A stretch of DNA of 64,000 bases. It comes from Bacilli bacterium. Lineage in GTDB: Bacteria; Bacillota_I; Bacilli_A; ML615J-28; CAG-313. The stretch lies in the NCBI GenBank assembly GCA_045653225.1, contig JAZOLP010000062.1, positions 908 through 64,907 on the forward strand. Direction: 5' to 3'. The number at the start of each line of letters is the position of its first letter. Position 1 is the first letter of the stretch. Below the pieces are notes generated by a model. The model worked only from the letters and a program-made list of their open reading frames with translations. It ran no database searches and was not told the origin of the DNA. Made by a program: the position numbers and the translations under genes. Positions 1,136 through 38,107 of this stretch are shown one piece after another.

Positions 1136-1139
1136 CCCC

Positions 1140-2945: not shown

Positions 2946-3134
2946 TATTTTTTATATTTAATAGGAAGCGATTTTTTACTTTAGTTTAATAAAGCGGGGC
3001 TTGTTTGTAGGATTAGTGTAAAGTGTTTTACTTTACAGTTTGTGCCTGACACTTCCAATCCAGTAACTCAATTCCTAACCAAATTACGACACAAAATTTT
3101 TTTCTTGACTAAACATTCCCTACGCCAACTAAAC

Positions 3135-19069: not shown

Positions 19070-22000
19070 ATGGCGAATAACAGAGTTGTGGTAAATTTTG
19101 ATTTTAAAGCTAATACTCAAGATATTCAAACACAATTAAATAGCTTAAAAACAAATTTACAACAAATTATAGGTCAATCTAGTAAGATAAATATTGGTGG
19201 ACATATTAACACACAGTTAAAAGACGCTGTGGGAGCCGCACAGTCATTACAAAAGCATTTAACCGCATCTTTCAACACAAATACAGGTCAATTAGATTTG
19301 GCAAAGTTTAATGCTTCATTGAAATCTTCTAATCAGAATGTTACTATGCTCGGAAAACAATTACTCGGTGCGGGTGCAGAGGGTAAAGCAGCATTTATGG
19401 GACTTGCTACTAGTCTAGTTCAAGCAGAAATACCTGCTGTAAAGCTTAGTACTACAATGGGTAAATTAATGACAACTTTTGCAAACAATGCTCGTTGGAT
19501 GATTTCTTCTTCTGTGTTAACAGGTTTCATATCTGGTATTAGAGAAGCTGTTGATTATACAAAAGATTTAAATGAAAGTTTAACAGATATTAGAATTGTT
19601 ACTGGTAAATCTTCAGAAGAAATGAATAGATTAGCCAAGTCAGCAAATAGAATGGCAAAAGAGCTTAAAACCTCTACTGCGGAAATTGTTAAAGGCCAAT
19701 TAATCTATTATCAACAGGGTGATAGTGCAGAGCTTGCAGCAAAGAAAGCTGAGATTACAACTAAAGCAGCCAATGTGTCTTTTGGTACTTCTCAAGAACA
19801 AATGTCTGAATATTTAACCGCAATTTGGAATTCATATCAAGTTGGAGAAGAAAATTTAGAACAGTTTGTTGATGTACTCGCGGCAGTTGGTGCAACAACC
19901 GCGACAAGTATGGAAGAAATTGCAACAGCGATGCAGAAAGTTGCCGCGACAGGTAATGCAGTAGGTGTTTCTTATGAGCAATTAACAGCAACAATTGCAA
20001 CTATTTCATCTATAACAAGAACAAGCTCTGAACAGGTTGGTACCGCGTTAAAAACTATTTATGCACGTATTGGTGATTTAAAAGCTGGTGGTCTCGATGA
20101 AGATGATATTGGTCTTGGTCAAGTTTCTACTGGTTTGAAAAAAGTTGGAATTGAAATTTTAGATACTAACAATAATATTCGTGATATGGGCGAAGTTGTT
20201 GAAGAAATTGGTACTAAATGGGAAGGATGGACAGAAGCTCAACAGCAAGCGATAGTTCAATTAATTGCGGGTAAAAGACAGTATACTCAAATGATGGCAT
20301 TGTTTGACAACTGGGATATGTATGAATCCACTCTTGCTACCGCAGAAGGCGCAGACGGTGAATTAAATAAACAACAAGAAATTTGGGCAGAAAGCTGGGA
20401 AGCCGCGAGTCAAAATGTTCAAGCTTCTTTAGAAAGTCTTTACGGTCAAATTTTTGATGATGATGTTTTTATTGATTTCTTAAATGGTTTAAATTTAATC
20501 CTTGAAGGTATAGATGGAATTACTGATTTGTTTGGCGGACTCGGCAACACATTGCTTATTTTGTCTACTTTGTTAGTTCAAAGATTTTCTATTCCTCTTG
20601 CAGATGGATTGCGCAACGCTGCAATGCAAGCAAAATTATTATTTGATTTTACAAACAAAGGATATCAAAAACAAATGTCTGACGTCCAAGAGTTATTGGG
20701 CAGCGTAAAAGCAGTAAACAGTGAAGAGCAAACTCAATTAAATATTTTAAAAACTAGAGCTCAATTAAATAGTGAATATGCAGCCATAGAAGAAAAATTA
20801 ACTGCTGAGCAAAAAACTCAGTACAAAGCAGAAATGCAAAATTTACAAGTTCTACAAGATGCTGCTTTGATTAAAGCAAAAAATTTAGATTTAACCAAGC
20901 AAGAAACGTCAGAAAAAATAAAAGAAAATTTTTCACGTGGCAAAACAGGTAAATCAGATGCTTTAGGCATGGCTCACGCACAGTTTAATGCAGAGAAAAA
21001 CCGTTTAACTGATTTGTATACAGGGTTAATTCCTGATGAGAAAATGCCCGGTTTAGAAAAATTAATAAATAATTTTAAAACCGGTAGTATAAATGCAACA
21101 GAGTTTAGACAAGAATTGGCAAAAATTGAACCTGAGCTTGCAAATGATAGTGGTTTAGATTTGTATATTCAAGGATTAGAAGAAACTCGAAACAAGATAC
21201 ATGAATTACAAAATGAATTAAATATATTATCAAACGCACCTCTTGCACTTGGAGAAGAGAATCAGTTTAATAATATGGGTGCGGATCAAGCAATTCAAAA
21301 ATATGCTCAATTAAAAGGTCAACTAGAATATTATGGTAATGCGTTAAAAACTGTGTCTTTTAATACAAAAGATGCAGAAAGTAGTCAGCAATCTATTAAT
21401 ACTGTTTTAAATGCTGCAGCAAAAATTTACGCAGATAACCCTGAAAAACTTAATAAAATATCACAAGCTTTAAAAGCTACAGATCTTTCAGCTGAGCAAT
21501 TTGAGGCTGAGGTTAAGCAATTAAAAAATGATTTAAAAGAACTCTATAGCTCTGAAAATGGCGGCTCTGGTAAGCTAGTCAATCAATTTATGAAAGTTAG
21601 AGATGCAATTAAAAATTCTGGCGGAGACGTTAAAGAATTAGATAGACTAATTGACGAATTATCTGGTAGCGTATACATTGCTGAGCAAGGTTTTGACCAA
21701 ATGGGAGAATCTGCTGAAAAGGCAAAAGGAAAGCTTGATCCAACACAAAACAAAAAAGATTGGGCGAGTTGGTCTGTGTCTATCTCAAGTGCGCTTATGT
21801 CTCTAATGAGTATTGTTAATGCAGTAAAATCTGCTTTTGATAGTTTTAATAATCCTGATGCAACTGGTTGGGAAAAATTTAGTGCAGTTATAAGTGTTGT
21901 TACTACTGTTTTAATGAGCGTCTCTATGTTATATCCAGTTGTTAGTGGTATAGTGGTAGCAAGTAATAGGGCTATGGCTGCTTCTGCAGCAGGCACTGCG

Positions 22001-25000
22001 ACTGCAGCACAAGCAATGTGGGCGTCAATTCTCGGTCCTATAGGAATAGCTGTTATTGCAATAGCCGCTGTTGTTGGTGCTATTGTGGCTATCGGCGCGG
22101 CAATCCATGAAACAGATACCGAAAAATTAGAACGTTTAAACAAAGAAGTTGAAGAAGTAAATGAAAAATATAACAAACAAAAATCTATTATAGATGAGCT
22201 TAACGCAAAAAAAGAAGCAGGAGCAGATAATCAAGCACAATTAGATGCATTGGATGCAGAAATAAAAAGAGAAGAAAGAAAATTAAAACTATTAGAAGAA
22301 GAAAAAAAAGCCAAAGAAGAAGAAAAAAATAAGCAAGAAGTTAAAGTTGAGCAAGAAAAGTATGATAAGGGCGGTTCAGCAAGTAAAAATACATATAATG
22401 ATTTAAACAATGCAAAGAACAGACTATTTAATGACGTTGGGTATTCAATGACACTTGAGGGACAAGTAGAATATCAAAAATTAATTGATGCATTTGAGCA
22501 AGGAAAAATATCGTTTCAAGAAATTCAAGATGAACTTCAGAATAATGCCGATAAATATTTTAACCCCGATGTTGCAGATGAATATGCTGATGCTGCAATT
22601 CAAGCATTAGAAGGTATCTCTGATGAAACTGAAAACAATTTACAAGAAAATTTAGAAAGTCTTGAACTATTTACTAAGAATGGCACAGAATTAACAGATA
22701 ACTTTTTAGGTACTTTTAAAAGAAATTTACATGCAGTATATGGAGATAGTCTTGGTTCTGATGCTATCGCAGCTATTGCGTCTTACTATAGTGGTATTGA
22801 CGAAATGTCTGATAAAGAATTACAATCTTTATTAGAAAAATTATTTCCTGATGATGACAAAAATACATTGGTTGAACGCTTTAGACAGGGTTTACAAGAG
22901 GTTGATGGTGAGATTGATAAGTTTGGAAAAAATCAAACTTTAGCTAAATCTCTTGAAAATTCAGGAAAAGCAGTAGAAAAAGTACAATCAGCGTTGAAAG
23001 AAGTTAGTAAAGATGGTTTTTTAGCTTATTCTACTATTGAAGAAATGGGAACTACATTAGATAAAGCTGGTGTTGCAAGTGCAGAATGGAAACAAGCTTT
23101 ATATGATGCAAATGGCAATGCAGAAAAAACCAAAGAAGTTTTAGGTCAAATTGTAAATGAAATAATTAACGCAACTCTTGCAGAGCAAAATTTTGCTAAT
23201 AATTTAGATTTTGATAAAGATGGTAAATTAACAGCAAGTAGTCAGCAATATATTCAAAATGTAGAGAAAATGATTGCTACTCAATTGCGTGAAAATGGAG
23301 TTTTAAACGCTGAAGAAGAAGCTCACAAAAGAGTTCAAGCAGAAATTATAAAGACAAAAGCTTTAAAACAAGGATTCGCAAGTCTAACCGGCGCGAACGC
23401 AGAAGCATTAATGGCAGAAGCCGCTGCCGCAGGAATCACAGGAGAAAGCTTTTCTGTTTTACAAAAACAAATTGCTATAGCTGCAGCTCAAGAATATGTA
23501 GCAAGAACAGAAGCTTTGGGTGCAGAAGCATCAGCAGCGTTTAGAGCTGCAATGGGCTATCAGGCAGTTGCAGATGCAAAGAAAGGATTAAAGTTTGATT
23601 CTCGTGGAGGATATTTTGTTGATAAAAATGGAAAAGTATACGGTGTTGGCGACGACCGCACAGGCGCGGAAGGTTTAGTATATCATACTTTATCTGGAGA
23701 TGCGAAAAATTTAATGAGTAGTGTAGAAATTCCAAAAATCACCGTTTCATCTGGAAGTGGCGGCGGAGGCAATAACGATCCATACTGGAAACAAATGTAT
23801 GAGACTAACGTTGCTCGAGCAGAGTTTCTGCAAAAAAGAGATGGTAAAACAGATGAGTGGCTTGGTCAGCAAATGGATTATTGGTATAATACATATGCTA
23901 AAGGACATGAGCTAGAAATAAAAGATCCAAAAACTGGTGAGACATGGGAAGAATATTCATTTGACGAGCAAAAAAAAGCAATAGAAAAGAAAAAATCTGG
24001 CGTAAAAAAGGTCTTTGAAGACACAATTAAAGATATTGAGCGTAACTCAGATAGTATCGACATGGGACGCGTGTCTACTTTATTATCGGATACTCTGAAT
24101 AAACAAACTGAACTAGGTTTCACATTTTCTCCTGAAGAAAAAGCAGAATTAATTGATGACTATGTGTCTCTTGTAGATGGTTTAATGAAAGAAGCTTCAT
24201 CTGATTTAGATACTAAATTTGAAAACCAAGAATTCTTTTCTGGTATGATTGATTTTGATGCTAAACAAGCAGAATATCAATATTTATTAGACACTTCACA
24301 AGATTATCTTAAAGATTTAGAAAAAAATGGAGCCACAACAGAACAACTTGCAGAATATGAAAATTCAGTTGTTATACCTCTTATTAAAAAGAAAAGAGAC
24401 CTTTTAAAAGAGGAAGCAGACGCGGCGAAGAAAGCAACTGAACACTATATAAAGCAGCGTGAATTCTATGGCTATAAAAACGGCGACAATGAAATTAAAG
24501 CTAGAGAAAGAGCTTATAAAAAAATGTTAAATTTAACACAGGAACAGATTCTTGCTGAATACGGAACATATCAAGAATATTGGTATGCTCTCGAGGAAGA
24601 AAGGCTTAATATTGATCAAATATTTAGAGACAAATTAAAAGAAGCTCTTGAAAAAGAAAAAGATGATAGAATTGCTGTTTTAGAAGCTGAAAAAAATGCT
24701 GTAGAAAAACTCTATGAAGGCGAAAGTACACTAAGAGAAAAGCGCAAACAAATCAATGATCAATTACAAGAATCTTTAACAATGTATCAATATCTTGATA
24801 AAGCAACAAGAAAGTTAATATTTAATGAAGAAGATTATCTTGCATTATCTAATACTTTAAATGAAATTGAAGAAGATATGTATGATTTAAATCAAAAATA
24901 TTTAAGAGATATTGTTGGTAAAGAAGCAGATGAATTAGAATATATAAATGTAGAATATGAAAGACAAAATGAACTTTTAATGAATCGCTACGAAATTGCA

Positions 25001-26218
25001 GAAAAAGAACTTGGTATTATCAAAGCCCGCACCGAATTAGAGAATACTCTTAAAGAAAGAAATACTCAAATGTTTATTAATGGTCGTTGGCAATGGGTAG
25101 CAGATCAGAAAGCTGTTATTGAAGCTCAAAAGAAATTAAATGACGCGGAATTTGACAAAGAAACATCTGAATTAGAAAATGAACAAGAGCTTTTAATTAA
25201 TAGTTTTGAAAAACAAATTGATGATGCAAATCAAACTTGGAAAAAAGCAACCAAAGTATTAGAAGACAAAGTTATGACTGTTGCAGAATTAATGGGGTCT
25301 CTTTCAGAACCTTTGGATGCTTTGACCGCACAGTTTTATGAGCTTGCTACTGGTAAAAAAATAACAGCTAGAAGAGAACCAAAACCTATTGAAGACGCAC
25401 AATCAGCATTGGCAAAAGATATTGCATTAGCTATTATTCGTAAGAAAGAAGAGTATGACGCGGCCAAAGCTCAAGGAGATATGACTAAAGCCCAAGAAAT
25501 TGAAGAGCAAACTAAAGCTGCTTATCAGGCTTTACAAGATTTAGGGTACAATGAACTGGCTGAAGAATTGCACAAGTCTGATTTAGCTACTGCTAAACAG
25601 TTAAATTTAGATGAATTAACTGCCAAAAAACAACAAACTGATGAAATAAAAAATACAATAAACAGTGCTAGTGACAAAATAGCGAAGGCTGTAAATCAAG
25701 GTTCTGTTACATCTGAAACAGAGCACAAAGGATCTGATGGTTTATCAATGCCAAAAGGATACGATCCAAATTTTGATTATCAAGCTCATATTAATAAACT
25801 AACTGCTGCAGGAGCGCCTGCTTCAGAGATTAATTATTGGAAAAGTCAAAGAGAAAAGAAAATTAAAGGAGAAAATCTTAATCCAGACGGTTCAAAGAAA
25901 GCAGCAGCAGGAACCCGTTTCGCGGCTCATGCTTTGTATGAAATTAATGAAATTGGTGAAGAAACATTTGTTACTCCTGATGGTCATTTCCGCAACTTTG
26001 CCGGAGGAGAGGTAGTATTCACTCACGAGCAAAGTCAAAGATTATTCTCACTCTTGAATGCAGATTTATTTGATATTAATAAGATGCCGAGAATGGGCGA
26101 GTTTGAACAATCCAATTCTAATGATACTTATATATCTATAGGAGGAATTTCTATTGATACAACAACACAGGACGGAAAAGATTTAGTAGAAATTCTTCAA
26201 AGAATTACAAATATTTAG
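19070..26218 (+). CDS. tail tape measure protein (2382 aa)
   Basis: Giant coiled-coil-rich protein; internal Ala/Ile/Val-rich transmembrane cluster at about aa 905-1000; position after the chaperone gene. Confidence 0.7.
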   Translation: MANNRVVVNFDFKANTQDIQTQLNSLKTNLQQIIGQSSKINIGGHINTQLKDAVGAAQSLQKHLTASFNTNTGQLDLAKFNASLKSSNQNVTMLGKQLLGAGAEGKAAFMGLATSLVQAEIPAVKLSTTMGKLMTTFANNARWMISSSVLTGFISGIREAVDYTKDLNESLTDIRIVTGKSSEEMNRLAKSANRMAKELKTSTAEIVKGQLIYYQQGDSAELAAKKAEITTKAANVSFGTSQEQMSEYLTAIWNSYQVGEENLEQFVDVLAAVGATTATSMEEIATAMQKVAATGNAVGVSYEQLTATIATISSITRTSSEQVGTALKTIYARIGDLKAGGLDEDDIGLGQVSTGLKKVGIEILDTNNNIRDMGEVVEEIGTKWEGWTEAQQQAIVQLIAGKRQYTQMMALFDNWDMYESTLATAEGADGELNKQQEIWAESWEAASQNVQASLESLYGQIFDDDVFIDFLNGLNLILEGIDGITDLFGGLGNTLLILSTLLVQRFSIPLADGLRNAAMQAKLLFDFTNKGYQKQMSDVQELLGSVKAVNSEEQTQLNILKTRAQLNSEYAAIEEKLTAEQKTQYKAEMQNLQVLQDAALIKAKNLDLTKQETSEKIKENFSRGKTGKSDALGMAHAQFNAEKNRLTDLYTGLIPDEKMPGLEKLINNFKTGSINATEFRQELAKIEPELANDSGLDLYIQGLEETRNKIHELQNELNILSNAPLALGEENQFNNMGADQAIQKYAQLKGQLEYYGNALKTVSFNTKDAESSQQSINTVLNAAAKIYADNPEKLNKISQALKATDLSAEQFEAEVKQLKNDLKELYSSENGGSGKLVNQFMKVRDAIKNSGGDVKELDRLIDELSGSVYIAEQGFDQMGESAEKAKGKLDPTQNKKDWASWSVSISSALMSLMSIVNAVKSAFDSFNNPDATGWEKFSAVISVVTTVLMSVSMLYPVVSGIVVASNRAMAASAAGTATAAQAMWASILGPIGIAVIAIAAVVGAIVAIGAAIHETDTEKLERLNKEVEEVNEKYNKQKSIIDELNAKKEAGADNQAQLDALDAEIKREERKLKLLEEEKKAKEEEKNKQEVKVEQEKYDKGGSASKNTYNDLNNAKNRLFNDVGYSMTLEGQVEYQKLIDAFEQGKISFQEIQDELQNNADKYFNPDVADEYADAAIQALEGISDETENNLQENLESLELFTKNGTELTDNFLGTFKRNLHAVYGDSLGSDAIAAIASYYSGIDEMSDKELQSLLEKLFPDDDKNTLVERFRQGLQEVDGEIDKFGKNQTLAKSLENSGKAVEKVQSALKEVSKDGFLAYSTIEEMGTTLDKAGVASAEWKQALYDANGNAEKTKEVLGQIVNEIINATLAEQNFANNLDFDKDGKLTASSQQYIQNVEKMIATQLRENGVLNAEEEAHKRVQAEIIKTKALKQGFASLTGANAEALMAEAAAAGITGESFSVLQKQIAIAAAQEYVARTEALGAEASAAFRAAMGYQAVADAKKGLKFDSRGGYFVDKNGKVYGVGDDRTGAEGLVYHTLSGDAKNLMSSVEIPKITVSSGSGGGGNNDPYWKQMYETNVARAEFLQKRDGKTDEWLGQQMDYWYNTYAKGHELEIKDPKTGETWEEYSFDEQKKAIEKKKSGVKKVFEDTIKDIERNSDSIDMGRVSTLLSDTLNKQTELGFTFSPEEKAELIDDYVSLVDGLMKEASSDLDTKFENQEFFSGMIDFDAKQAEYQYLLDTSQDYLKDLEKNGATTEQLAEYENSVVIPLIKKKRDLLKEEADAAKKATEHYIKQREFYGYKNGDNEIKARERAYKKMLNLTQEQILAEYGTYQEYWYALEEERLNIDQIFRDKLKEALEKEKDDRIAVLEAEKNAVEKLYEGESTLREKRKQINDQLQESLTMYQYLDKATRKLIFNEEDYLALSNTLNEIEEDMYDLNQKYLRDIVGKEADELEYINVEYERQNELLMNRYEIAEKELGIIKARTELENTLKERNTQMFINGRWQWVADQKAVIEAQKKLNDAEFDKETSELENEQELLINSFEKQIDDANQTWKKATKVLEDKVMTVAELMGSLSEPLDALTAQFYELATGKKITARREPKPIEDAQSALAKDIALAIIRKKEEYDAAKAQGDMTKAQEIEEQTKAAYQALQDLGYNELAEELHKSDLATAKQLNLDELTAKKQQTDEIKNTINSASDKIAKAVNQGSVTSETEHKGSDGLSMPKGYDPNFDYQAHINKLTAAGAPASEINYWKSQREKKIKGENLNPDGSKKAAAGTRFAAHALYEINEIGEETFVTPDGHFRNFAGGEVVFTHEQSQRLFSLLNADLFDINKMPRMGEFEQSNSNDTYISIGGISIDTTTQDGKDLVEILQRITNI

Positions 26219-29692: not shown

Positions 29693-31204
29693 ATGACAAG
29701 ATTTTATGAATATTTAGAGAAGTTGCGCGACCCGCATTATAAAACAGCAATTAAAATTTCTTGGCTTTATCCAGACGAAACAGTTCAGAAAGAATTCACT
29801 AATGATTTATATAATATGAGTGGTAATTTAACAGTAAATTATCAAAATGGTGCAAGGCGTTCTTGCACCATTACTCTTTCCAATGATAATGGTAAATTTC
29901 CCGTTGATTATAATAATATTTGGTTAGGTCAAAAATTCCAGCTATGGATGGGACTGTATCTCGATGATGGAACGCCATTCTACTTGCCGCAAGGGATTTT
30001 TTATATAAAAAACCCGAAAGAAACATATAATCCAAATACAAAAACTTTAACTTTACAAGGTGTTGATAAGTGGGCCTATTTAGATGGTTCATTGTTTGGA
30101 TATTTAAGAGGAACTTACCAATCTTTGATTAATCAAGATATTCGTGCATTAGTAGCGGGTTTAATTAATAAATCAAAATATGATAATAATTTTGACTCTA
30201 CTGGTAATATTTTAGATAGAATAGACCCAAAAGATGCAATATTTGATGGTTTTGACGGAGATAGCGGCAAAGCAGAGGTACAAGGATATGAAAAAGAAAC
30301 TGGCAATTTGGTTTTTAAAGATATGTCTTCTGATACATATTTTATTATTGGGATGAACTCCAATTCTGAAACACCTGTTTATCAATGTATTCAAAAAGAA
30401 ATAAAAGATGACAACAAGGATAGCATTATTGGCTATTCTTATGAATTATCAAAAGATGCAAACGGTAATAATATTCTTATCACTGCATTACCGGAAAACT
30501 ATAAGCCTGCGGTAACGGAACAATCTATATTTTTAAATCCATATACGATGACTACTGAAACGGGTAAAACGTTAGCAGATATGATTTTAGAGTATGCAAC
30601 CATTTTATTTGCTGATGTTTATTATGATGAAAATGGATATTTAAGATTTGTAGCGCGCGATCGCACAAAACAAGACCAAAGCGTTTATAACAAAGAGCTT
30701 ATTTGGCATTTTACTGTTGAAGAGAAAGAATTACTTGGCTTAGAATTAACTAATGCTTTTGATAAAGTTTATAATGATATTATTGTATTGGGACAAATTA
30801 TAGGGGGCAAACAAATGAAAGCCCGCATTCAAAATCAAGATCCTGCGAGCGATACCAATGTTGAGAAAATAGGTATAAAAACAAAACCTCCATATGAAAG
30901 CGATCAATATTATTCTAATCAATTATGTTTAGAATTGGCTGGATATTATGCTCAAATTGATATGGCAATGGATAGAACAGGTACAGTTAAAGCATTACCT
31001 ATTTATCATATGGATGTTAATAAATTAATAACCTTATCAACACCAAACAATAAAATGAAAAGAGAAGAATTTTTAGTTACAGGATATACTCTTCCACTCA
31101 ATCCCATTGGGCAAATGAGCTTAAATGTAACTAATTTAAAATATTTTACAAATTGGACAGATATGACTTGGACTTTAGAGGAAGGAGCTGTTAATGTTGA
31201 ATGA
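29693..31204 (+). CDS. tail tip or baseplate protein (503 aa)
   Basis: Synteny. Confidence 0.35.
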   Translation: MTRFYEYLEKLRDPHYKTAIKISWLYPDETVQKEFTNDLYNMSGNLTVNYQNGARRSCTITLSNDNGKFPVDYNNIWLGQKFQLWMGLYLDDGTPFYLPQGIFYIKNPKETYNPNTKTLTLQGVDKWAYLDGSLFGYLRGTYQSLINQDIRALVAGLINKSKYDNNFDSTGNILDRIDPKDAIFDGFDGDSGKAEVQGYEKETGNLVFKDMSSDTYFIIGMNSNSETPVYQCIQKEIKDDNKDSIIGYSYELSKDANGNNILITALPENYKPAVTEQSIFLNPYTMTTETGKTLADMILEYATILFADVYYDENGYLRFVARDRTKQDQSVYNKELIWHFTVEEKELLGLELTNAFDKVYNDIIVLGQIIGGKQMKARIQNQDPASDTNVEKIGIKTKPPYESDQYYSNQLCLELAGYYAQIDMAMDRTGTVKALPIYHMDVNKLITLSTPNNKMKREEFLVTGYTLPLNPIGQMSLNVTNLKYFTNWTDMTWTLEEGAVNVE

Positions 31205-31484
31205 ACAAAATTTAGCTAAAATGCTTGAAATTTTAGAACCTTATTTTAGGAAGAAATTTGAAAAAGAAACTGGTTTAACAAAAACCGCAAAAATTCTCAA
31301 TGCTATTGTAGATTTTACTTCTGATATTGATAAATCTAAGGTAACTGTTCACACTGCAGATTCTCCTAATGTAAAGTTTATAGTTACAAACCCTAATCTA
31401 TATAATACTTATAGTCAAGGAGACTCTGTTCAATTAATATATTATGATAGTTTAAAAACAGCAAAAATATTTGCAAAAAATTGA
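31194..31484 (+). CDS. hypothetical tail-associated protein
   Basis: ORF track; overlap coupling. Confidence 0.35.
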   Translation: MLNEQNLAKMLEILEPYFRKKFEKETGLTKTAKILNAIVDFTSDIDKSKVTVHTADSPNVKFIVTNPNLYNTYSQGDSVQLIYYDSLKTAKIFAKN

Positions 31485-31503
31485 GTGAAAGGAGAAAATT
31501 AAA

Positions 31504-32079
31504 ATGGCAGAAATATCAGCAATACCTGAAAGCTGGCATGGCTTAACTGGTGCGCAAGTTAGAGATATAATGATTAGTATCTTGCAGAGAGCAGAAAATG
31601 CGGCAGATGCAATAGAAAATGTGGATAATGCTTTTGTTTTTGGATATTATGTGGATAACGAGTTTTATAAAACAAAAAATAGCGATGGCTCATATGGCGA
31701 TAAAATAGCTGACAAAAAGAAAACAACAATCTATTATGATTTAAATAATTTACCTATTGCATACGGATGGGATGGTACAAAATTTCAATCACTTGAGACT
31801 AGTGCTGAAATTGCTTCAAGATTAAATAATTTTGATGATAATAATCAAACCATAGAAGCAGTAATGGATAATAAGGTAGATAAAGTAGAAGGTTCAACAC
31901 TTTATTCTACAGAAGAGAGAAGTAAAGTTCAAATAGTTAATGATTTAACTGTTGAAATAGTTCATAAAATTGGTGAATTATTTTCGTTAACAGAAACAGA
32001 TGGTGATTATTCACCTGGCTTATACGTGTATACAGGCGAACAAAATCAACCCTTTCGAAGAGTAGGAGGTTTATTATAA
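31504..32079 (+). CDS. hypothetical tail or fiber-associated protein
   Basis: RBS GAAAGGAGAAAA. Confidence 0.35.
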   Translation: MAEISAIPESWHGLTGAQVRDIMISILQRAENAADAIENVDNAFVFGYYVDNEFYKTKNSDGSYGDKIADKKKTTIYYDLNNLPIAYGWDGTKFQSLETSAEIASRLNNFDDNNQTIEAVMDNKVDKVEGSTLYSTEERSKVQIVNDLTVEIVHKIGELFSLTETDGDYSPGLYVYTGEQNQPFRRVGGLL

Positions 32080-32080
32080 T

Positions 32081-32413
32081 ATGAAAACAATTAATTGGAT
32101 TTTAGAAAATTGGGATGCGCTTTGCGCGATTGGCGCTATTGTGTTTGGCATCGCGATTAAATTAAAAAATCTCTGGACAGGAAATGTTAAAGAATGGTTA
32201 ATTAACATCTGTCTGGAAATGGAAAAAGAGTTTGGAGAAAAGACAGGTTTAATTAAAAAATCTAATGCTTATGCAATATTTGTTGAGCAATATCCTATTA
32301 TATCCAAACTTATAAGTGCAAAAACATTTGATAAAATTTTAAACGAAGCTCTTGAAATTATACATCAAGAAATTGAGAATAATGAAAAAGTAAAAGAGTA
32401 TTGCGGAAAATAA
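32081..32413 (+). CDS. small membrane protein, a holin-like candidate
   Basis: N-terminal TM segment ALCAIGAIVFGIAI; last gene before a terminator. Confidence 0.3.
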   Translation: MKTINWILENWDALCAIGAIVFGIAIKLKNLWTGNVKEWLINICLEMEKEFGEKTGLIKKSNAYAIFVEQYPIISKLISAKTFDKILNEALEIIHQEIENNEKVKEYCGK

Positions 32414-32420
32414 AAAATTT

Positions 32421-32456
32421 GGGGAATCCTAAACGGATTCCCCTCTTATTTTTTTG
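32421..32456 (+). terminator. rho-independent terminator: GGGGAATCC-taaac-GGATTCCCC followed by TCTTATTTTTTTG
   Basis: Perfect 9-bp stem and T-run. Confidence 0.65.
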
Positions 32457-32559
32457 CCAAAAATTTTTAAAAAAAATTGGACAAAATTGGGAAATTCTCT
32501 TGCCAGAATTTTTATAAGAAAATGGAAGGGAAAAATTCTTGCAAGAAAGAAGGTTAAAA

Positions 32560-32963
32560 AAATGTATCCAAATACTTTTGGCAATAATTTATATAATAAT
32601 TTTATTCCACCGCAATATAGAATGATAGATCAACAGTCACAGACTTTTTCTTTAAGAGGCAGACCAGTAGCTTCAATAGAGGAAGCTAGAGCCAGTATGA
32701 TAGATTTAGATGGATCAATATTCTATTTTCCAAGTATGGCAAACAATTGTATATATACGAAACAAATTAATTTAGACGGGACTTCTTCTTTAAAAACTTA
32801 TCAATTAGTAGAAACGCCAACTCCGGCTCCATTCCCTTCAACTACAGATTTTGTTACTAAAGAAGAATTTAACAAAAAAATAAATGAAATTTTAGAACAA
32901 ATGAAAGGAGTTAGCGATGACAATGACAAGAGAGAACCCGCTGCTTTCCCATCCTCTTTTTAA
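32560..32963 (+). CDS. hypothetical protein, first gene of the accessory cassette. The start is set at MYPNTFG; the ORF track begins at 32454.
   Basis: ORF track; RBS GAAAGAAGGTTAAAAAAATG. Confidence 0.35.
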
Positions 32964-33102
32964 AAGAGCGCAAGAAATGGCGCAAGGGAAATCAGAAGCA
33001 GAGCTTCAACAGATAGCTCTAAATTTATGTAAAGAACGCGGACTTGACTTTGAGGAAGCTTTTTCCGCGTTTCAAAAACAATTTGGCTTAAGCCAAAAAT
33101 AA
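32917..33102 (+). CDS. small hypothetical protein (61 aa)
   Basis: AAAGGAG RBS 7 nt upstream of the ATG. Confidence 0.35.
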   Translation: MTMTRENPLLSHPLFKRAQEMAQGKSEAELQQIALNLCKERGLDFEEAFSAFQKQFGLSQK

Positions 33103-33135
33103 AATAAAAAAAATTTTTAGAAAGGAGTACATTAA

Positions 33136-33975
33136 ATGATGGACAACGGATTATCAATTGCTGATGCTTTAGCATTATCAAGAAGCAATGGAAATGGTGG
33201 CAATGGAGACGGCTTCGGTGGCTTCGACTCTTGGATTTTCTTCCTTTTCTTCCTTTTAGCTTGGGGAAATGGCGGTATCTGGGGTAACAGAGGCGGCGGA
33301 TTTGGCGGAGGTGGCTCAGAAGGTGGCGGATATAATCACTACCACAACTTCTGCGGAAATGGCTGGGGCTCACCTTTTGCAACTCAAGCAGACGTAAGAG
33401 CTGCAGTAGATCAGCAGACACTTATTAGTAAACTTGATCAGCAAACCTATGGTCTTGCAGATAGCACATATGCATTAAATAATGCTATCACAAGTGGTTT
33501 TGCTTCTGCTGAATTATCAAGATGTAATCAACAAGCAGCTTTAATGGCTCAGCTTAACAACATAGCTATGAGCAATGAAAAATGCTGCTGCGAAACACAG
33601 AGATTAATTGAAAGAGGTTTCTGTGATACAAATTACAATCTTGCAACTCAGTCTAATGCAATTCAAGGCGCTATTTGCAGCTCTACAAGAGACATCCTTG
33701 AAAACGCAAACAACAACACAAGAGCAATCCTTGATTTCTTAACAACAGATAAGATTGCTTCATTACAGGCTGAAAATCAAAAACTTCAGCTCGCTGCTTC
33801 ACAGGCTAACCAGAATAGCGCACTTTTAGCTGCTATTGATGCTAGTACAGCAGAAATCATTAGAAGAACAGGCAGCGAATGCCCAATTCCAGCATATGTA
33901 GTACCAAATCCTAATTGCTGCTACGATTATCGCGTAGTTGCTAATAATGGCTGCGGCGGATGCGGAAGCTTCTAA
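33136..33975 (+). CDS. Gly-rich, aromatic and Cys-rich membrane-associated protein of unknown function
   Basis: GNGGNGDGFGGF...IFFLFFLLAWGNGGIWGNRGGGFGGGGSEGGGY, then a Q/N/A-rich region and a CCYDYRVVANNGCGGCGSF terminus; strong RBS. Confidence 0.5.
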   Translation: MMDNGLSIADALALSRSNGNGGNGDGFGGFDSWIFFLFFLLAWGNGGIWGNRGGGFGGGGSEGGGYNHYHNFCGNGWGSPFATQADVRAAVDQQTLISKLDQQTYGLADSTYALNNAITSGFASAELSRCNQQAALMAQLNNIAMSNEKCCCETQRLIERGFCDTNYNLATQSNAIQGAICSSTRDILENANNNTRAILDFLTTDKIASLQAENQKLQLAASQANQNSALLAAIDASTAEIIRRTGSECPIPAYVVPNPNCCYDYRVVANNGCGGCGSF

Positions 33976-34060
33976 TTTAATTTTATGAATTTTCTGAAAA
34001 ACTAAAATAGGCAGGCGGCCGCGAGGTCGTCTGCCAAATACTATAAGAAAGGAGATTATT

Positions 34061-34471
34061 ATGGTTTATACATTTTCAGTTACAGAACAAGCATTAGAAA
34101 CGAACGAAGCTATTCCTTTCTTAACAGATGGAGTAACATATGGTAGCTGTACTTGTCATAGCGCAGGTTCCGCGGCTGTTCAGTTAAAACATACTGGACT
34201 TTATTTCGTTACTTTTAATGCGACACTTAGCACAACAGAAACAACTGGCGACTTAGAAGCTCAGCTTCAAATAAATGGTGTAAACTATCCAGGTGCAGTT
34301 GCTTCTGCCGGTGTAACAGAAGGTAATTCTATTTCATTTTCTGCTCTTGTAAAAGTATTACCAAACTGTTGCGCAATTGATTCTAATTTACCTGCTTCTG
34401 TTACTGTTGTAAATACAGGCGTAGACGCTATTTATACTAACGCTGCGTTAACCATAGTGAAAATAAGATAA
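34061..34471 (+). CDS. C1q/TNF-like jelly-roll protein that resembles the BclA C-terminal domain
   Basis: FVTFNATLSTTE...LQINGVNYPGAV...ALTIVKI resembles the YKITVIANTATA...IQVNGVPVPG...IIIEKV pattern of BclA-CTD, as recalled from memory. Confidence 0.4.
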   Translation: MVYTFSVTEQALETNEAIPFLTDGVTYGSCTCHSAGSAAVQLKHTGLYFVTFNATLSTTETTGDLEAQLQINGVNYPGAVASAGVTEGNSISFSALVKVLPNCCAIDSNLPASVTVVNTGVDAIYTNAALTIVKIR

Positions 34472-35214
34472 TGGACACAAATTTAAATTCAAGTAATTAT
34501 GGAATGCCATCTATGGAAGTAGCAAGAAATACACATCACCTTGCTTCTAAAATTTACAACAGACAAATAGAAGCTATAATGTTTCACGAATCTTTAATCG
34601 ATCTTTTTAACCTTTTAAAGCTTGACGGCTTTGTAGAGTGGCAAGAAGAGGTATTAGAAGATGAAATGGATTTAATGCATAAGTTTAAGAAACAATATGC
34701 AAAACATTTAAAAGGAACAGTTGATAAACCAAAATTTAATGAATCAACTGACTCTGCTCTTCCAAAAGAATGGCAAGGCAAACAAAATGTAACTATAGAT
34801 GCAAAAAATATGTCTATGGGTATTAGATATGGTCTAAACAAGTATATTGATTGGGAAAAAGAAACTATGAATATGTACAAAGATGCCATGTCTCAAATTG
34901 AGAAAGACGGCGAGTTTGATGAATTAGCTTCTTTCCTTAAAATGCTTTGTAAATCTTCAAAAAAAGAAATAGCATTTGTAGAAGAATTAATCAATGAATT
35001 AGAAGAAACTCATTATGAGCCAAACGCAATTAAAAAATTACAAAAAGATTATTTTGAAAACTATGAAGATTATGAAGTATCTGGCAATAGAAATGGATAT
35101 GCATATAATATGCACCCATACTATCCGGCTATGAATAGAAGACGCGATGATATGGCTATGAACAATGGCCGCGACCGCGCTTATAATAGAAAACTAATCT
35201 ATTATCGCTATTAA
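34471..35214 (+). CDS. hypothetical protein, last gene of the cassette
   Basis: ORF track; taATGg overlap. Confidence 0.4.
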   Translation: MDTNLNSSNYGMPSMEVARNTHHLASKIYNRQIEAIMFHESLIDLFNLLKLDGFVEWQEEVLEDEMDLMHKFKKQYAKHLKGTVDKPKFNESTDSALPKEWQGKQNVTIDAKNMSMGIRYGLNKYIDWEKETMNMYKDAMSQIEKDGEFDELASFLKMLCKSSKKEIAFVEELINELEETHYEPNAIKKLQKDYFENYEDYEVSGNRNGYAYNMHPYYPAMNRRRDDMAMNNGRDRAYNRKLIYYRY

Positions 35215-35223
35215 AAGCAAAAT

Positions 35224-35266
35224 AAGGGAGTCTTATATTTTATATAAGACTCCCTATTTTTTTTTA
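35224..35266. terminator. bidirectional terminator between the convergent modules: GGGAGTCTTATAT-ttta-ATATAAGACTCCC with T-tracts on both strands
   Basis: Perfect 13-bp stem flanked by runs of T on each strand. Confidence 0.65.
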
Positions 35267-35698
35267 ATCTTGGGTTTGTTTTAAACTTCTTACTTTTGCT
35301 ATTAGTGCGTCCATGTGACCATTTCCGCCTAATTTTTTGTATAAAGTAAACTCTTCTTCAATGTTTTCTAATTCATAAATGCTAATGTGACATGCATTAA
35401 TATACATAATACATTTGTCTTTTAAAGCATTATAATGCGCAGATAAAATCCCTTCGCGCAATACATCTAAAGAAGATATAAGTGTTTCTATTTTGTCATT
35501 TAATTCTGTATATTCTCCAAGAGTTGTTTCTCTTAACTCATCAATTTCGTCATATACACTTTTAAATACTTCTTGCTCTCTTCCAGCTTTTACGTATTTG
35601 GCATCTTTTTTAATTCTTGCTCCAAGATAAGTAATTAAACCTGTTGCCATAGCACCTAAGATACCGAGAGCCCATTTAACCCAATATTCTTGCCACAT
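35264..35698 (-). CDS. membrane protein with an N-terminal TM helix, a lysis-associated or spanin-like candidate
   Basis: WALGILGAMATGLITYLGA TM segment; RBS GAGGGGAGA. Confidence 0.35.
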   Translation of the reverse strand: MWQEYWVKWALGILGAMATGLITYLGARIKKDAKYVKAGREQEVFKSVYDEIDELRETTLGEYTELNDKIETLISSLDVLREGILSAHYNALKDKCIMYINACHISIYELENIEEEFTLYKKLGGNGHMDALIAKVRSLKQTQD

Positions 35699-35761
35699 TT
35701 GTTCATTCTCCCCTCGTTTATAGTATCTAAATATTATAAAAATTAGAGGAGCTAGATTGTC

Positions 35762-36253
35762 CTAATTTGTCCTAGAAACTAAATATTTTCCAATACAAAT
35801 TGCATCACATTCATCTTGAATAACTTTAATGCCATATTCTTCTTTGATGTATCTTTGCGCGTCACGCTTTTGCTCGGTACGGTTTTTGCCTTTTATACCG
35901 AGCGCGCTCTTCCAAGTAGAAGACGGGACTATTTCATACGGAACCGACATTTCCGCGCACAATTCTAATAACAATGCTTGAACATAAGCAAGTTTTTTAA
36001 ATGTTGCTACATTAGTATCTTTTGAAGATCCAGGAATGTTTTGCAACTGAATTTCTTCTATTGCAACTAATAGCTTTCCACGAAACATTAATTCAGTTAT
36101 CTTATTTTTAATTTTGCTTTTGAGTTTAATAATTCTTGCAAACATTTCTCCTTCTGGGGAGAAGTGTTCCCAAGATTCTAGCTGACCATTGACAAATATT
36201 GCGATACCTGTAACTTGAGTACTTTGGTCAAGAGCTAAAATAATTTCATCCAT
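35762..36253 (-). CDS. ruvC: RuvC-family Holliday junction resolvase
   Basis: ILALDQSTQVTGIAIF N-terminal catalytic Asp motif; EEIQ glutamate; C-terminal DECDAICIG. Confidence 0.6.
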   Translation of the reverse strand: MDEIILALDQSTQVTGIAIFVNGQLESWEHFSPEGEMFARIIKLKSKIKNKITELMFRGKLLVAIEEIQLQNIPGSSKDTNVATFKKLAYVQALLLELCAEMSVPYEIVPSSTWKSALGIKGKNRTEQKRDAQRYIKEEYGIKVIQDECDAICIGKYLVSRTN

Positions 36254-36741
36254 TATTTTTTGCTACTTCCTAATTTTCCAGTTCCTCTTTCTGATTCTAT
36301 TTTCATTAAATCATCATAAGGAATTTCTTCAAACTGAACTTTAGGTGGTTCAATAAAAATAGCTTGAGCTATTGCTTTTTCGTATGGGTAAATAATATAG
36401 TGATGTTTTTCCCAAGTTTTATCTTCTATGTTTTTTAAAACTACAATAGGAAAATCATTAGTGTTTGTAATACCAACAAAAATTTCTCCTCTATACCCAG
36501 AATCAACAACTCCTGAGCGGAGTGCCATACCCTTAGCTCCTGTACTTCCTCTTTCGCGCAACAACATTACATAATCAGGTGAAAAGGCTGTCGCTAAACC
36601 AGTAGGAATTAGTTTTGTTTTATGCGGGAGTATAATAATATAATCTTCATCGAAGCAAGGATAAAGGTCAAATCCCGCATCTTCATCTCTTTTACTTGGT
36701 ATCTTTGCTTCTGGTCTTAATTTAGAAATCTGTACTTGCAT
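36253..36741 (-). CDS. dut: dUTP pyrophosphatase. The start is set at MQVQISK; the ORF track extends it to 36777.
   Basis: Motifs AGFDL, RSGxxxKG and GVVDSGYRGEI. Confidence 0.8.
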   Translation of the reverse strand: MQVQISKLRPEAKIPSKRDEDAGFDLYPCFDEDYIIILPHKTKLIPTGLATAFSPDYVMLLRERGSTGAKGMALRSGVVDSGYRGEIFVGITNTNDFPIVVLKNIEDKTWEKHHYIIYPYEKAIAQAIFIEPPKVQFEEIPYDDLMKIESERGTGKLGSSKK

Positions 36742-37000
36742 CTTCGTTATTCTCCATTCTTTGTTCGCAGTAAACATCTAAAGTAGAATTCATTGGGTCT
36801 TTTTCGTCATTAAATACAAGCTTAGCTGTAACCACATAATAAGTATCTACAACTGCACCTTTTTCTTTAACATCTTTTGTTTTGTAAGAAAAATTCTTTA
36901 ACTCTCCGTATCTATGCTTTTTAAGCTCTGCATGAAGTTCTTCTACTTCTGCTACACTACTCATTCTATATGTTGCACTATTTTCAATTAAATATTTCAT
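36722..37000 (-). CDS. hypothetical protein
   Basis: ORF track. Confidence 0.4.
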   Translation of the reverse strand: MKYLIENSATYRMSSVAEVEELHAELKKHRYGELKNFSYKTKDVKEKGAVVDTYYVVTAKLVFNDEKDPMNSTLDVYCEQRMENNEDASTDF

Positions 37001-37013
37001 ATTAAATCTCCTT

Positions 37014-37235
37014 TTACTCTTCCATTAAATGTATTTCAAAACCTGCTTCGCCAATTAATTCCGCCATTTCTAAAGATATAGATGATTTAAAAACATATAT
37101 TTCTTTAGTATCTAATTCTCTTAATGAAGGAATTAAATCTTCTAATAAGCATCTTTTAATTAATACTGTGGTATCTATGTTGTCACCTTGAAAAATATAA
37201 GCTCCGTGCGGAACCATTGTTAATATATATCTCAT
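37014..37235 (-). CDS. hypothetical protein
   Basis: ORF track. Confidence 0.4.
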   Translation of the reverse strand: MRYILTMVPHGAYIFQGDNIDTTVLIKRCLLEDLIPSLRELDTKEIYVFKSSISLEMAELIGEAGFEIHLMEE

Positions 37236-37585
37236 ATTTCAATTACTCCTTTATCATATACAAAAAAGTAGTAAGCTCTATCGTCAACCCAGAATATTAA
37301 AGCCTCTTCATCTTCTGTTAATGCAATAGATTTTAGTTCTCCTCTATCAAAAACAGTAAGCATTAATTCGTCCAATAACTTTCCATTTGGGTTCATTCTT
37401 AGGTTATGACCTTTTGCAAACATAGTAAAATCATAAGTTTCTCTATTTAACAAAAGGAAGTATTTATTAGAACTGTGCTTATCAAGATATGATTTTACTA
37501 AACCACTAACCATTACTTCTACAAATTCGTCGTCTAATTTTTGCATTCCGTTCATTATCATTTGATTAAATTCATATTGTGTCAT
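37232..37585 (-). CDS. hypothetical protein
   Basis: ORF track. Confidence 0.4.
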   Translation of the reverse strand: MTQYEFNQMIMNGMQKLDDEFVEVMVSGLVKSYLDKHSSNKYFLLLNRETYDFTMFAKGHNLRMNPNGKLLDELMLTVFDRGELKSIALTEDEEALIFWVDDRAYYFFVYDKGVIEI

Positions 37586-37624
37586 TTATTTAACCTCCTT
37601 TTCTATAAATATATTATCAAAATT

Positions 37625-38107
37625 TTAATTTGTTTTCAAACATTCGATAATTCTTTGATTAGCGCTTCCTCGCCATTTCAAAGTTAAATCTTTCTGTTCT
37701 TCGACAAAAGGTCCGTCTATTAAATAATTAATTTTTTCTAATATATTTGTTATATAGATATCTTTTTTAGACATTAATTCTTCTATTGTATATCCTGTCC
37801 AGAGGAATATTTTTATATCTGGATGCGCGGCCCGCACCTTAGAAATTAAATGCGAGACTTCTTTGCGATTTCTCGGATGGAGGGGCTCTCCGCCAAGTAT
37901 ACTTAGGTTACGCTGAATTCCATTAGCAACAAGCGCGTTAAATATTTCTTTTTCAGTAGCCTTTGTATAAACATTTCCGCTCTGAAAATTCCACGCAGCT
38001 TTATTAAAACAACCTGGGCACTGGTGTTCACATCCGCTAACAAAGAGGGAAACGCATATACCCTCTCCGTTAACTATATCATTTGGATTGATAATCATAT
38101 AATTCAT
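37625..38107 (-). CDS. nrdG: anaerobic ribonucleotide reductase activating protein (radical SAM)
   Basis: 160 aa; GCEHQCPGCFN CxxxCxxC cluster; near-collinear with E. coli NrdG, including WTGY and LKWRGS. Confidence 0.8.
   Translation of the reverse strand: MNYMIINPNDIVNGEGICVSLFVSGCEHQCPGCFNKAAWNFQSGNVYTKATEKEIFNALVANGIQRNLSILGGEPLHPRNRKEVSHLISKVRAAHPDIKIFLWTGYTIEELMSKKDIYITNILEKINYLIDGPFVEEQKDLTLKWRGSANQRIIECLKTN

What the first reader, a model, noticed from the sequence alone, without database searches (positions are those of the whole stretch)
32454..35266. Separately terminated accessory cassette after the tail genes, encoding spore-surface-like proteins
Strong terminators at 32421-32456 and 35224-35266 bracket five genes that do not fit virion synteny. 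One is a 279-aa protein that is Gly/aromatic-rich (GNGGNGDGFGGF..., with a hydrophobic FFLFFLLAW segment), then Q/N/A-rich, then Cys-rich (CCYDYRVVANNGCGGCGSF). Another is a 136-aa protein whose sequence pattern resembles the C1q/TNF-like BclA C-terminal domain of Bacillus and Clostridium exosporium proteins. A 247-aa protein has a basic and aromatic tail. In a phage of an AT-rich, probably spore-forming Firmicute, this could be a moron cassette that modifies spore or cell-surface properties. It could instead be an unconventional receptor-binding or lysis cassette.
Basis: inference. Interest (0 to 1): 0.6.

Follow-up and report, generated by a model that had tools for sequence, protein, structure and literature searches.

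The report
Mobile accessory gene cassette of gut phages
The five genes are real and form their own transcription unit, but they are one copy of a very widespread, dispensable and uncharacterised gene module that moves between gut phages of Clostridia, Bacteroides and even archaea, so it is not a spore-specific cassette.

Summary
Two strong bidirectional terminators bracket five + strand genes, although the first gene starts at 32562, not 32454. The 136-aa protein D does resemble the BclA C-terminal domain (Pfam E 8e-8, below the curated cutoff; PDB 9H38 E 1e-3). The cassette is a module with fixed gene order A-B-C-D plus variable genes, seen in 86 fetched loci. The 279-aa protein C has about 2,400 clusters (50% identity) of relatives, none named. 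The module sits at different genome positions: after lysis genes next to an integrase, inside head-gene clusters, or among early genes. It often carries its own small HTH regulator. Near-identical Clostridium perfringens phages exist with and without it, so it is dispensable. Homologues of C occur in crAss-like and Bacteroides uniformis phages and in Methanomassiliicoccales viruses, which argues against a spore-specific role. The AlphaFold2 model of C has a Gly/aromatic head with a 7-14-residue hydrophobic core, one helix of about 160 residues, and a Cys-rich tail. A conserved strong hairpin follows gene C. My best guess, at low confidence, is a dispensable rod-plus-knob fibre or coat assembled in the cytoplasm. 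The function is unknown.

The parts
32421..32455 (.). Upstream bidirectional intrinsic terminator. It separates the tail genes and the 110-aa membrane protein from the cassette.
   Evidence: 9-bp stem, 6 GC pairs, then a T-run; sequence.
32479..32518 (+). Conserved upstream block (GGACA ... TATAAG), a candidate dedicated promoter or activator site. It does not have sigma-70 spacing.
   Evidence: Alignment with the regions upstream of gene A in L004 and L068. One search lists no consensus sigma-70 site between 32443 and 32562.
32562..32963 (+). Gene A, 133 aa. It has a disordered Tyr/Gln/Pro-rich N-terminus, a small 3-strand beta meander, one helix, and a conserved C-terminal Phe.
   Evidence: P0121 is identical. 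Alignment A3. AlphaFold2 model. No PDB fold match. The only structural matches are uncharacterised gut phage proteins in BFVD. Found in 78 of 86 loci.
32917..33102 (+). Gene B, 61 aa, a small helical protein. Its start overlaps the end of A.
   Evidence: Of the 71 ORFs found in the A-C slot, 70 form one family. The median A-B gap is -8 nt.
33136..33975 (+). Gene C, 279 aa, the signature protein. It has a Gly/aromatic head with a short hydrophobic core, a helix of about 160 residues with an invariant CC (a CCC triplet in at least 90% of sequences), and a Pro/Cys-rich tail (CPxPAYVVPNPNCCY...GCGCG).
34010..34035 (+). Strong GC-rich hairpin just after gene C (dG -23 kcal/mol) with no T-run. The feature is conserved by position across loci.
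   Evidence: in 51 loci the mean best dG is -21.5 against -11.5 for shuffles. Sequence.
34061..34471 (+). Gene D, 136 aa, a BclA_C-like (C1q/TNF-like) beta protein with CxC and CC motifs.
34471..35214 (+). Gene E, 247 aa, a helical protein with an Arg/Asn/Tyr-rich tail. This slot is variable between loci.
   Evidence: Homologous to the 332-aa protein of L001 (E 7e-9). Weakly similar to CPD1_043 and phiCP26F gp37 (E 5e-4).
35225..35265 (.). Downstream bidirectional terminator, shared with the convergent - strand gene 35264-35698.
   Evidence: sequence.

Best explanation
Shown: the region is one copy of a horizontally mobile, separately transcribed, dispensable accessory module of gut phages. 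Its core is A-B-C-D in fixed order, followed by variable genes. Elsewhere it is often preceded by a small HTH regulator and a small papain-like protein. Inferred mechanism: C is the abundant main product. Its helix of about 160 residues (roughly 24 nm) would form an oligomeric rod. The Gly/aromatic head, whose hydrophobic core is too short to be a normal transmembrane helix, would serve as an anchor or self-association plug. The Cys-rich tail would be a cross-linking or metal-binding knot. D, a small BclA_C/TNF-like protein and probably a trimer, would supply a knob. A and B, which look translationally coupled, and E would act as adaptors or assembly helpers rich in disordered Tyr/Gln/Arg segments. 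None of these proteins shows an obvious signal peptide, so assembly would take place in the cytoplasm late in infection. The product would be an optional fibre or coat on particles, or on an infected-cell structure. It would serve persistence or adhesion in the gut, not host recognition or lysis.
For: Fixed synteny was found across 86 loci. The insertion site varies. Phage_min_cap2 lies upstream in 9 of 39 loci and Phage_scaffold downstream in 9 of 55. Endolysin domains lie upstream in 7 loci, and integrase or resolvase genes downstream in 17 of 55. In CPD1 and C3_41T2LP the module sits among early or recombination genes. There is a natural presence/absence polymorphism between C. perfringens phages whose flanks are 94-98% identical; a 3' remnant of gene F0 remains in the cassette-minus phages. 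The window copy has an upstream terminator and a conserved upstream block. GC is 0.40 across gene C against 0.29-0.34 nearby. The AlphaFold2 model of C has a single helix at 84-245. The hydrophobic period of that helix is 3.65, above the shuffle null, and the hydrophobic run is only 7-14 residues. A strong hairpin after C is conserved, as is seen after major-subunit genes in pilus operons (my own knowledge). D is BclA_C-like. C homologues occur across host phyla, which fits a function that does not depend on host envelope type. Other annotators have called the crAss homologues 'spike protein/glycoprotein' or 'viral fiber'.
Against: No experiment and no structural match ties any of these proteins to virions. 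The module's own regulator, its terminators and its position among early genes in some phages are unusual for structural genes. A Gly/aromatic hydrophobic head and long disordered Tyr/Gln/Arg-rich segments are unusual in virion fibres. I found no link between the C tail variant and the type of D protein. The D slot is filled by at least two families with no detectable sequence similarity to each other. The C model is of moderate quality (pLDDT 66, pTM 0.25), and the oligomeric state was not modelled. The hairpin after C in the window has no T-run.
Confidence: 0.35

Rival explanations
1. Membrane-associated accessory system. C is tethered to the cytoplasmic membrane by its hydrophobic head. Together with D, A, B and E it forms a late envelope-associated scaffold that modulates lysis timing, blocks superinfection, or organises assembly.
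For: C has a hydrophobic aromatic core flanked by Gly. The module often lies next to holin and endolysin genes. In the window it sits where a lysis cassette would be expected, and no endolysin or holin was recognised there. The 3.65-residue amphipathic period fits surface-binding 11-mer helices (the comparison rests on my own knowledge).
Against: The uninterrupted hydrophobic run is only 7-14 residues (median 10), short for a transmembrane helix. No muralytic or holin family matched. There was no PADLOC match. The cassette is dispensable. It is conserved across Gram-positive, Gram-negative and archaeal hosts, whose envelopes differ.
Confidence: 0.22
2. One reading: a moron expressed in sporulating hosts that adds BclA-like and Cys-rich proteins to the spore surface.
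For: D is BclA_C-like. The Cys-, Gly- and Tyr-rich compositions resemble coat or exosporium proteins (my own knowledge). None of the proteins shows an obvious signal peptide, as for mother-cell assembly. Most loci come from Clostridia. Some cassettes are preceded by a GerE/LuxR-like 70-aa HTH protein (E 1.6e-3, below cutoff).
Against: C homologues occur in crAss-like phages, a Bacteroides uniformis phage and Methanomassiliicoccales viruses. The window phage has no integrase among the ORFs scanned. D lacks a collagen-like stalk. There is no DUF4183 or DUF3992 (Ena) match. No sporulation-sigma promoter was shown.
Confidence: 0.07
3. A proteolytically processed or cross-linked protein matrix (a 'cornified' coat or occlusion-like material) that protects progeny outside the anaerobic gut. 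The associated papain-like or metallopeptidase genes would process or cross-link the Gln-, Cys-, Gly- and Tyr-rich substrates.
For: In 30 of 63 loci a 125-aa protein with invariant GDC..R, H and D.W.S lies directly upstream of A. SprT/PolyVal-like metallopeptidases lie in or next to the module in Clostridia, crAss and Bacteroides phages. The compositions are Cys- and Gln-rich. All known hosts are strict anaerobes of the gut.
Against: The argument rests only on composition and analogy. The protease genes are absent from the window. No catalytic family assignment was obtained.
Confidence: 0.12
4. An essential tail fibre, receptor-binding or lysis module in unconventional form.
For: In the window it lies directly after the tail genes. 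D has weak PHROG hits to collagen-like minor tail and tail fibre families (E 9e-3 and 2.5e-2).
Against: Near-identical viable phages lack it. C is 30-50% identical across phages of different host phyla, unlike receptor-binding proteins. Its genome positions vary.
Confidence: 0.04

Closest known systems
BclA / F-BclA C-terminal domain (Pfam PF18573; PDB 9H38, Bacillus thuringiensis F-ENA tip fibrillum)
   Same: D aligns over nearly its whole length (Pfam positions 17-127 of 128; 9H38 residues 15-139). It is a small all-beta protein of the size of one C1q/TNF-like domain.
   Different: The score is below Pfam's cutoff. D has no collagen-like stalk and no exosporium-anchoring N-terminus. It has extra CxC and CC motifs. 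It is encoded in phages, including phages of hosts that do not sporulate. The wider D-slot family gives no PDB hit.
Phage morons (autonomous transcription units inserted in late operons, as defined for lambdoid and HK97-like phages; my own knowledge)
   Same: The unit has flanking terminators and a candidate promoter of its own. It inserts between genes that are adjacent in relatives, it is dispensable, and its composition differs from its surroundings.
   Different: It has five to eight genes instead of one or two. It also occurs in apparently virulent phages and among early genes. Expression from a prophage has not been shown.
Dispensable alpha-helical virion fibres: T4 fibritin (wac), phi29 head fibre gp8.5, reovirus sigma1 (my own knowledge)
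   Same: These have a long helical rod, a short N-terminal anchor and a small C-terminal oligomerisation element, and they are not essential for plaque formation.
   Different: There is no sequence or fold match. C has a Gly/aromatic hydrophobic head and 9-19 cysteines. The knob is a separate polypeptide.
crAss-like phage ORFs annotated 'spike protein/glycoprotein' or 'outer capsid protein/viral fiber' (for example QOR59421.1 of cr116_1 and WLZ21182.1 of Bacteroides phage C3_41T2LP)
   Same: These are true homologues of C, with HMM E-values of 4e-29 and 1.5e-37. They share the Gly/hydrophobic head, the CCC, the ENxxLxLAASQQAQTA motif and the PxPAYVV...GCGC tail.
   Different: Their names are annotation labels with no supporting evidence in the records. 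The neighbouring genes in those phages are not detectably homologous to A, B or D.
Keratin with keratin-associated proteins, or the bacterial spore coat (analogy by composition only)
   Same: A central helical rod is flanked by Gly/aromatic and Cys-rich end domains, together with partner proteins rich in Tyr/Gly and Cys.
   Different: There is no homology. The rod is half as long, and cross-linking has not been tested.

Membership tests
BclA_C domain (PF18573), C1q/TNF-like | Sequence score at or above Pfam's gathering cutoff | tested here: not met
   32.7 bits against a cutoff of 38, although E is 7.9e-8 over profile positions 17-127 of 128. Three close relatives carry a precomputed PF18573 assignment.
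BclA_C domain (PF18573), C1q/TNF-like | Similarity to a solved BclA-type C-terminal domain | tested here: inconclusive
   phmmer against 9H38 gives E 1.1e-3. hhalign of the D family against a 9H38 fragment gives probability 37%, E 3.5e-4. The D-family profile against the whole PDB gives no hit.
BclA_C domain (PF18573), C1q/TNF-like | Trimeric jelly-roll fold | not tested
BclA-type exosporium glycoprotein | N-terminal exosporium-targeting motif and collagen-like GXX repeats | tested here: not met
   D has 136 aa and no GXX repeats.
Endospore appendage subunits (Ena DUF3992, F-ENA DUF4183) | Match to the subunit domain; N-terminal connector or hook | tested here: not met
   There is no such Pfam hit for A-E at E up to 1. 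The F-ENA hook motif M-P-psi-psi is absent from D.
   C homologues occur in crAss-like phages, a Bacteroides uniformis phage and Methanomassiliicoccales viruses.
   Only a conserved block that does not fit sigma-70 spacing was seen. No expression data are available.
Phage moron / accessory cassette | Own terminator(s) and a candidate promoter | tested here: met
   Terminators. Conserved upstream block. In other loci a terminator hairpin and a TGn-extended -10-like motif precede gene A (read by eye).
Phage moron / accessory cassette | Present or absent between otherwise near-identical phages | tested here: met
   This was shown for the homologous cassette in C. perfringens phages, 17DYC against phiCP26F. 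It could not be tested for the window phage itself, because no near relative was found.
Phage moron / accessory cassette | Expression from the prophage | not testable with these tools
   No transcript data are available. The window phage has no integrase among the ORFs scanned.
Lysis cassette (holin, endolysin, spanin) | Muralytic domain or holin-type transmembrane domains; required for plaque formation | tested here: not met
   No such family matched in Pfam, PHROGs or NCBIfam. The hydrophobic run in C is 7-14 residues. Viable phages lack the cassette.
Known anti-phage defence systems | Match to a PADLOC model | tested here: not met
   There were no hits apart from two chance-level ones.

The most novel reading that the evidence does not exclude
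A-B-C-D is a previously undescribed kind of phage accessory structure. It would be a self-contained, horizontally mobile kit shared by viruses of Clostridia, Bacteroidota and gut methanogens. The kit would build a cross-linkable rod-and-knob or coat material: C as a keratin-like rod, a TNF-like or other Cys-rich knob, and disordered Tyr/Gln/Arg-rich partners. The material would form on virions or on infected-cell remains, and it would adapt the virus to the gut or to transmission (adhesion to mucus, or protection from oxygen or desiccation) and not to a particular host cell.
Probability: 0.2. Interest if true: 0.8.

Novelty: new variant of a known kind. Interest (0 to 1): 0.6.

Why it matters
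Protein C belongs to a family of about 2,400 clusters at 50% identity, and at least 7,966 clusters at 90% identity. The family has no Pfam model, no name and no solved structure, yet it is shared by crAss-like phages, Clostridia phages and gut archaeal viruses. A module that crosses host phyla, is dispensable and often carries its own regulator probably serves the virus's life in the gut and not its interaction with one host. Cultured pairs of C. perfringens phages with the module (CPD1, 17DYC, XP41-N3) and without it (phiCP26F, phiCP39-O) already exist. The question can therefore be tested directly.

Tried and rejected
- Near-DNA search of the region against phage records found nothing.
- Pfam, NCBIfam and PHROGs gave no functional name for A, B, C or E. 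The accessory families were likewise unnamed.
- PDB sequence searches with C, E, A, the D-family profile, the alternative D1 family and the papain-like family found nothing meaningful.
- A Foldseek search of the A model against the PDB gave no hit below E 0.28.
- A fold search of C was not attempted, because the model is a single helix.
- PADLOC gave no match.
- Rfam gave only a chance-level hit.
- I looked for an endolysin, holin or integrase in the window by pooled Pfam scans. None was found.
- I tested whether the variant of the C tail tracks the type of D protein. No pattern emerged.
- I considered a double-glycine leader in C cleaved by a C39-like peptidase. The motif is not conserved in the window copy and no link to C39 could be shown, so I dropped the idea.
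- Literature searches found no description of the cassette. The 'spike protein' paper I read concerns unrelated tail spikes.
Full report
**1. The observation**

The scan of 30000-38000 finds two strong terminator-like hairpins, each predicted on both strands. One is at 32421-32443: a 9-bp stem with 6 GC pairs, then a T-run. The other is at 35225-35255: a 14-bp stem, then T9. The region has 11 terminator-like sites, against 3.8 +/- 2.0 in shuffles.

Five + strand ORFs lie between the two hairpins. I call them A to E.
- A: 32562-32963
- B: 32917-33102
- C: 33136-33975
- D: 34061-34471
- E: 34471-35214

The identical database protein P0121 has 133 aa and begins at ATG 32562. GC is 0.40 across gene C and 0.29-0.34 on either side. 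The downstream terminator also marks the point where the + strand late genes meet the - strand replication genes.

**2. Protein D**

D matches Pfam BclA_C at E 7.9e-8 over almost the whole profile, but the score of 32.7 bits is below the cutoff of 38. Its best PDB match is 9H38 at E 1.1e-3. Sleutel et al. identify 9H38 as the C-terminal domain of F-BclA, the tip fibrillum of Bacillus thuringiensis F-ENA (PMC12357932). Three close relatives of D carry a precomputed PF18573 assignment.

D has no collagen-like repeats. The wider family that fills the D slot hits the window's D at E 4e-12, but it gives no PDB hit as a profile and only a weak hhalign link to 9H38. I did not model the fold.

**3. 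The cassette is a conserved module**

C matches phrog_16490 at E 1e-46. It also has 2,409 relatives among 50%-identity representatives, of which 1,173 score at E 1e-10 or better. None has a name or a Pfam domain.

I fetched 86 loci and searched them with iterated HMMs.
- A is present in 78 loci.
- Of the 71 ORFs (55-94 aa) found between A and C, 70 form one family (B).
- C is present in all 86.
- The slot after C holds a D-like protein in 45-49 loci, an unrelated Cys-rich beta protein (D1) in 12, and other proteins in the rest.
- The next slot is variable. In 41 of 56 loci it holds a helical protein with an Arg/Asp/Tyr/Gly/Ser-rich middle.

The window's E is homologous to the 332-aa protein of L001 (E 7e-9). 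It is weakly similar to a 175-aa protein of C. perfringens phages (E 5e-4). A and B overlap or abut, with a median gap of -8 nt.

Upstream of A, many loci carry a 125-aa protein with invariant GDC..R, H and D.W.S (30 of 63 loci). That pattern fits a papain-like triad, which is my inference. No family or PDB link was found for it. Many loci also carry a 66-86-aa HTH protein of the sigma-70 region 4 / LuxR-GerE type, with scores below the Pfam cutoffs. The window has neither of these genes.

**4. The module is mobile and dispensable**

I pooled the neighbouring genes and scanned them with Pfam. Within 4 kb upstream, 9 of 39 loci have Phage_min_cap2 and 7 have endolysin domains. Downstream, 13 of 55 loci have Phage_integrase, 4 have Resolvase and 9 have Phage_scaffold. 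The module therefore recurs in two places: between the lysis genes and the integrase, and inside the head-gene cluster.

In the cultured C. perfringens phage CPD1 it lies beyond the lysis genes, among anti-repressor, recombinase and ThyX genes. In Bacteroides phage C3_41T2LP, C follows the RecT, resolvase and I-HmuI genes.

The decisive comparison is between two C. perfringens phages. Phage 17DYC carries A, B, C, D1, D2 and F0. Phages phiCP26F, phiCP39-O, phiCP13O, phiCP34O and phiCP9O share flanks that are 94-98% identical but lack A to D2. They keep only the 3' part of F0, annotated as gp36. tblastn with A or C finds nothing in those genomes. The module is thus not needed to make plaques. 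This excludes an essential virion, receptor-binding or lysis role.

Homing endonuclease genes sit inside or beside the module in L003, CPD1 and C3_41T2LP.

**5. The host range of C argues against a spore role**

Most genome hits are Clostridia: Oscillospiraceae, Acutalibacteraceae, Lachnospiraceae, Ruminococcus, Anaerotruncus colihominis DSM 17241 and Enterocloster. However, C homologues also occur elsewhere.
- Many crAss-like phages
- The plaque-isolated Bacteroides uniformis phage C3_41T2LP
- Viruses assigned to Methanomassiliicoccales

These homologues share the Gly/hydrophobic head, the CCC, the ENxxLxLAASQQAQTA motif and the PxPAYVV...GCGC tail. The Clostridia HMM scores them at E 4e-29 and 1.5e-37. 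The neighbours of C in those phages are not detectably homologous to A, B or D. They do have similar sizes and compositions, and small HExxH peptidases lie nearby.

The window itself shows no integrase, endolysin or holin among 54 ORFs scanned. It encodes gyrase, ligase, helicases, NrdD, ThyX and other replication functions. It looks like a virulent phage.

**6. Anatomy of C and A**

The AlphaFold2 model of C has moderate quality (pLDDT 66).
- Residues 1-83 form a disordered Gly-rich head with a short helix at 32-43.
- Residues 84-245 form one continuous helix.
- The remainder is a disordered Cys-rich tail.

Family-averaged hydrophobicity along the helix has a period of 3.65 residues. Its spectral power is 75, against a 95th-percentile null of 55. 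The longest hydrophobic run in the head is 7-14 residues with a median of 10, which is short for a transmembrane helix. C proteins contain 9-19 cysteines. The tails fall into several variants that do not track the type of D protein.

A has a disordered Tyr/Gln/Pro-rich N-terminus, a three-strand meander, one helix and a conserved terminal Phe. Its model has no PDB fold match. It matches only uncharacterised gut phage proteins in BFVD.

**7. Regulation**

No consensus sigma-70 promoter lies between the upstream terminator and A. A block (GGACA ... TATAAG) is conserved with two divergent relatives.

A strong GC-rich hairpin follows gene C in nearly all loci. The mean best dG is -21.5 kcal/mol, against -11.5 for shuffles, over 51 loci. 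In the window the hairpin lies at 34010-34035 with dG -23. Such hairpins after a major-subunit gene usually raise its expression relative to the genes downstream (my own knowledge). C is therefore probably the abundant product.

**8. Interpretation**

Shown: this is a mobile, insulated, dispensable module of very wide distribution.

Inferred, at confidence about 0.35: a rod (C) plus knob (D) assembly, helped by A, B and E, is built in the cytoplasm as an optional fibre or coat.

The rivals are as follows.
- A membrane-tethered late scaffold that affects lysis or exclusion: 0.22
- A processed or cross-linked protective matrix: 0.12
- An essential fibre or lysis module: 0.04

No defence-system model matches. 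I found no paper that describes the module.

**9. Novelty and verdict**

The genetic element is of a known kind, a phage moron or accessory cassette, and D belongs near a known domain. The core proteins A, B and C have no characterised relatives, and the spread across host phyla is unusual. I rate the finding as a new variant of a known kind, with interest 0.6. There is a 0.2 chance that it represents a new class of gut-phage accessory structure.

Noticed in passing
window 34010-34035, and the C-D intergenic regions of 51 loci (for example L007, L042, L062): A strong GC-rich hairpin directly after gene C is conserved by position but not by sequence. It is often followed by a weak T-run. It is probably a partial terminator or a transcript stabiliser that sets the C:D ratio.
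   Followed up: partly
L003 5079-5630 (- strand); L087 7540-8190; L089 3934-4554: Homing-type endonuclease genes (HNH or I-HmuI-like) sit between B and C, or just upstream of C, in three unrelated phages. They may help the module spread.
   Followed up: no
L012, L016, L017, L018, L021, L028, L074, L075: 130 nt upstream of gene A: Direct repeats of ACACTTT or GATACTT follow the small HTH gene. After them come a hairpin with a T-run and a TGnGATAAT-like extended -10 motif. This looks like a dedicated regulator with its operator and promoter.
   Followed up: no
L008 6505-6963 and 29 other loci (alignment A9): A 125-aa protein family (phrog_3754) with invariant GDC..R, H and D.W.S lies directly upstream of A in about half of the Clostridia loci. 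It could be a papain-like protease or a transglutaminase. It has no Pfam or PDB link.
   Followed up: partly
window 1-64000: No endolysin, holin or integrase family was recognised among 54 ORFs scanned. Terminase, portal and capsid were not recognised by Pfam either. The lysis genes of this phage remain unidentified. Candidates with N-terminal membrane helices are 32081-32413 (+, 110 aa) and 35264-35698 (-, 144 aa).
   Followed up: partly
window, - strand block 35700-64000: Two ORFs match NRDD and two match GIY-YIG (pooled scan). This suggests that the anaerobic ribonucleotide reductase gene is split or accompanied by homing endonucleases. I did not resolve which ORFs are involved.
   Followed up: no
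window 19070-26218: A 2,382-aa protein matches Phage-related minor tail protein (PhageMin_Tail, E 1.4e-30), probably a tape measure. It is followed by proteins of 1,137 and 503 aa with no family match.
   Followed up: no
window 1001-3000: A stretch of very low GC (0.24-0.25) with only small - strand ORFs lies at the left end of the window.
   Followed up: no
L091 5742-5978 (phiCP26F gp36): gp36 is the 3' remnant of the module's F0 gene. It is a recombination scar that marks loss or replacement of A to D2 in the phiCP26F/phiCP39-O lineage.
   Followed up: yes
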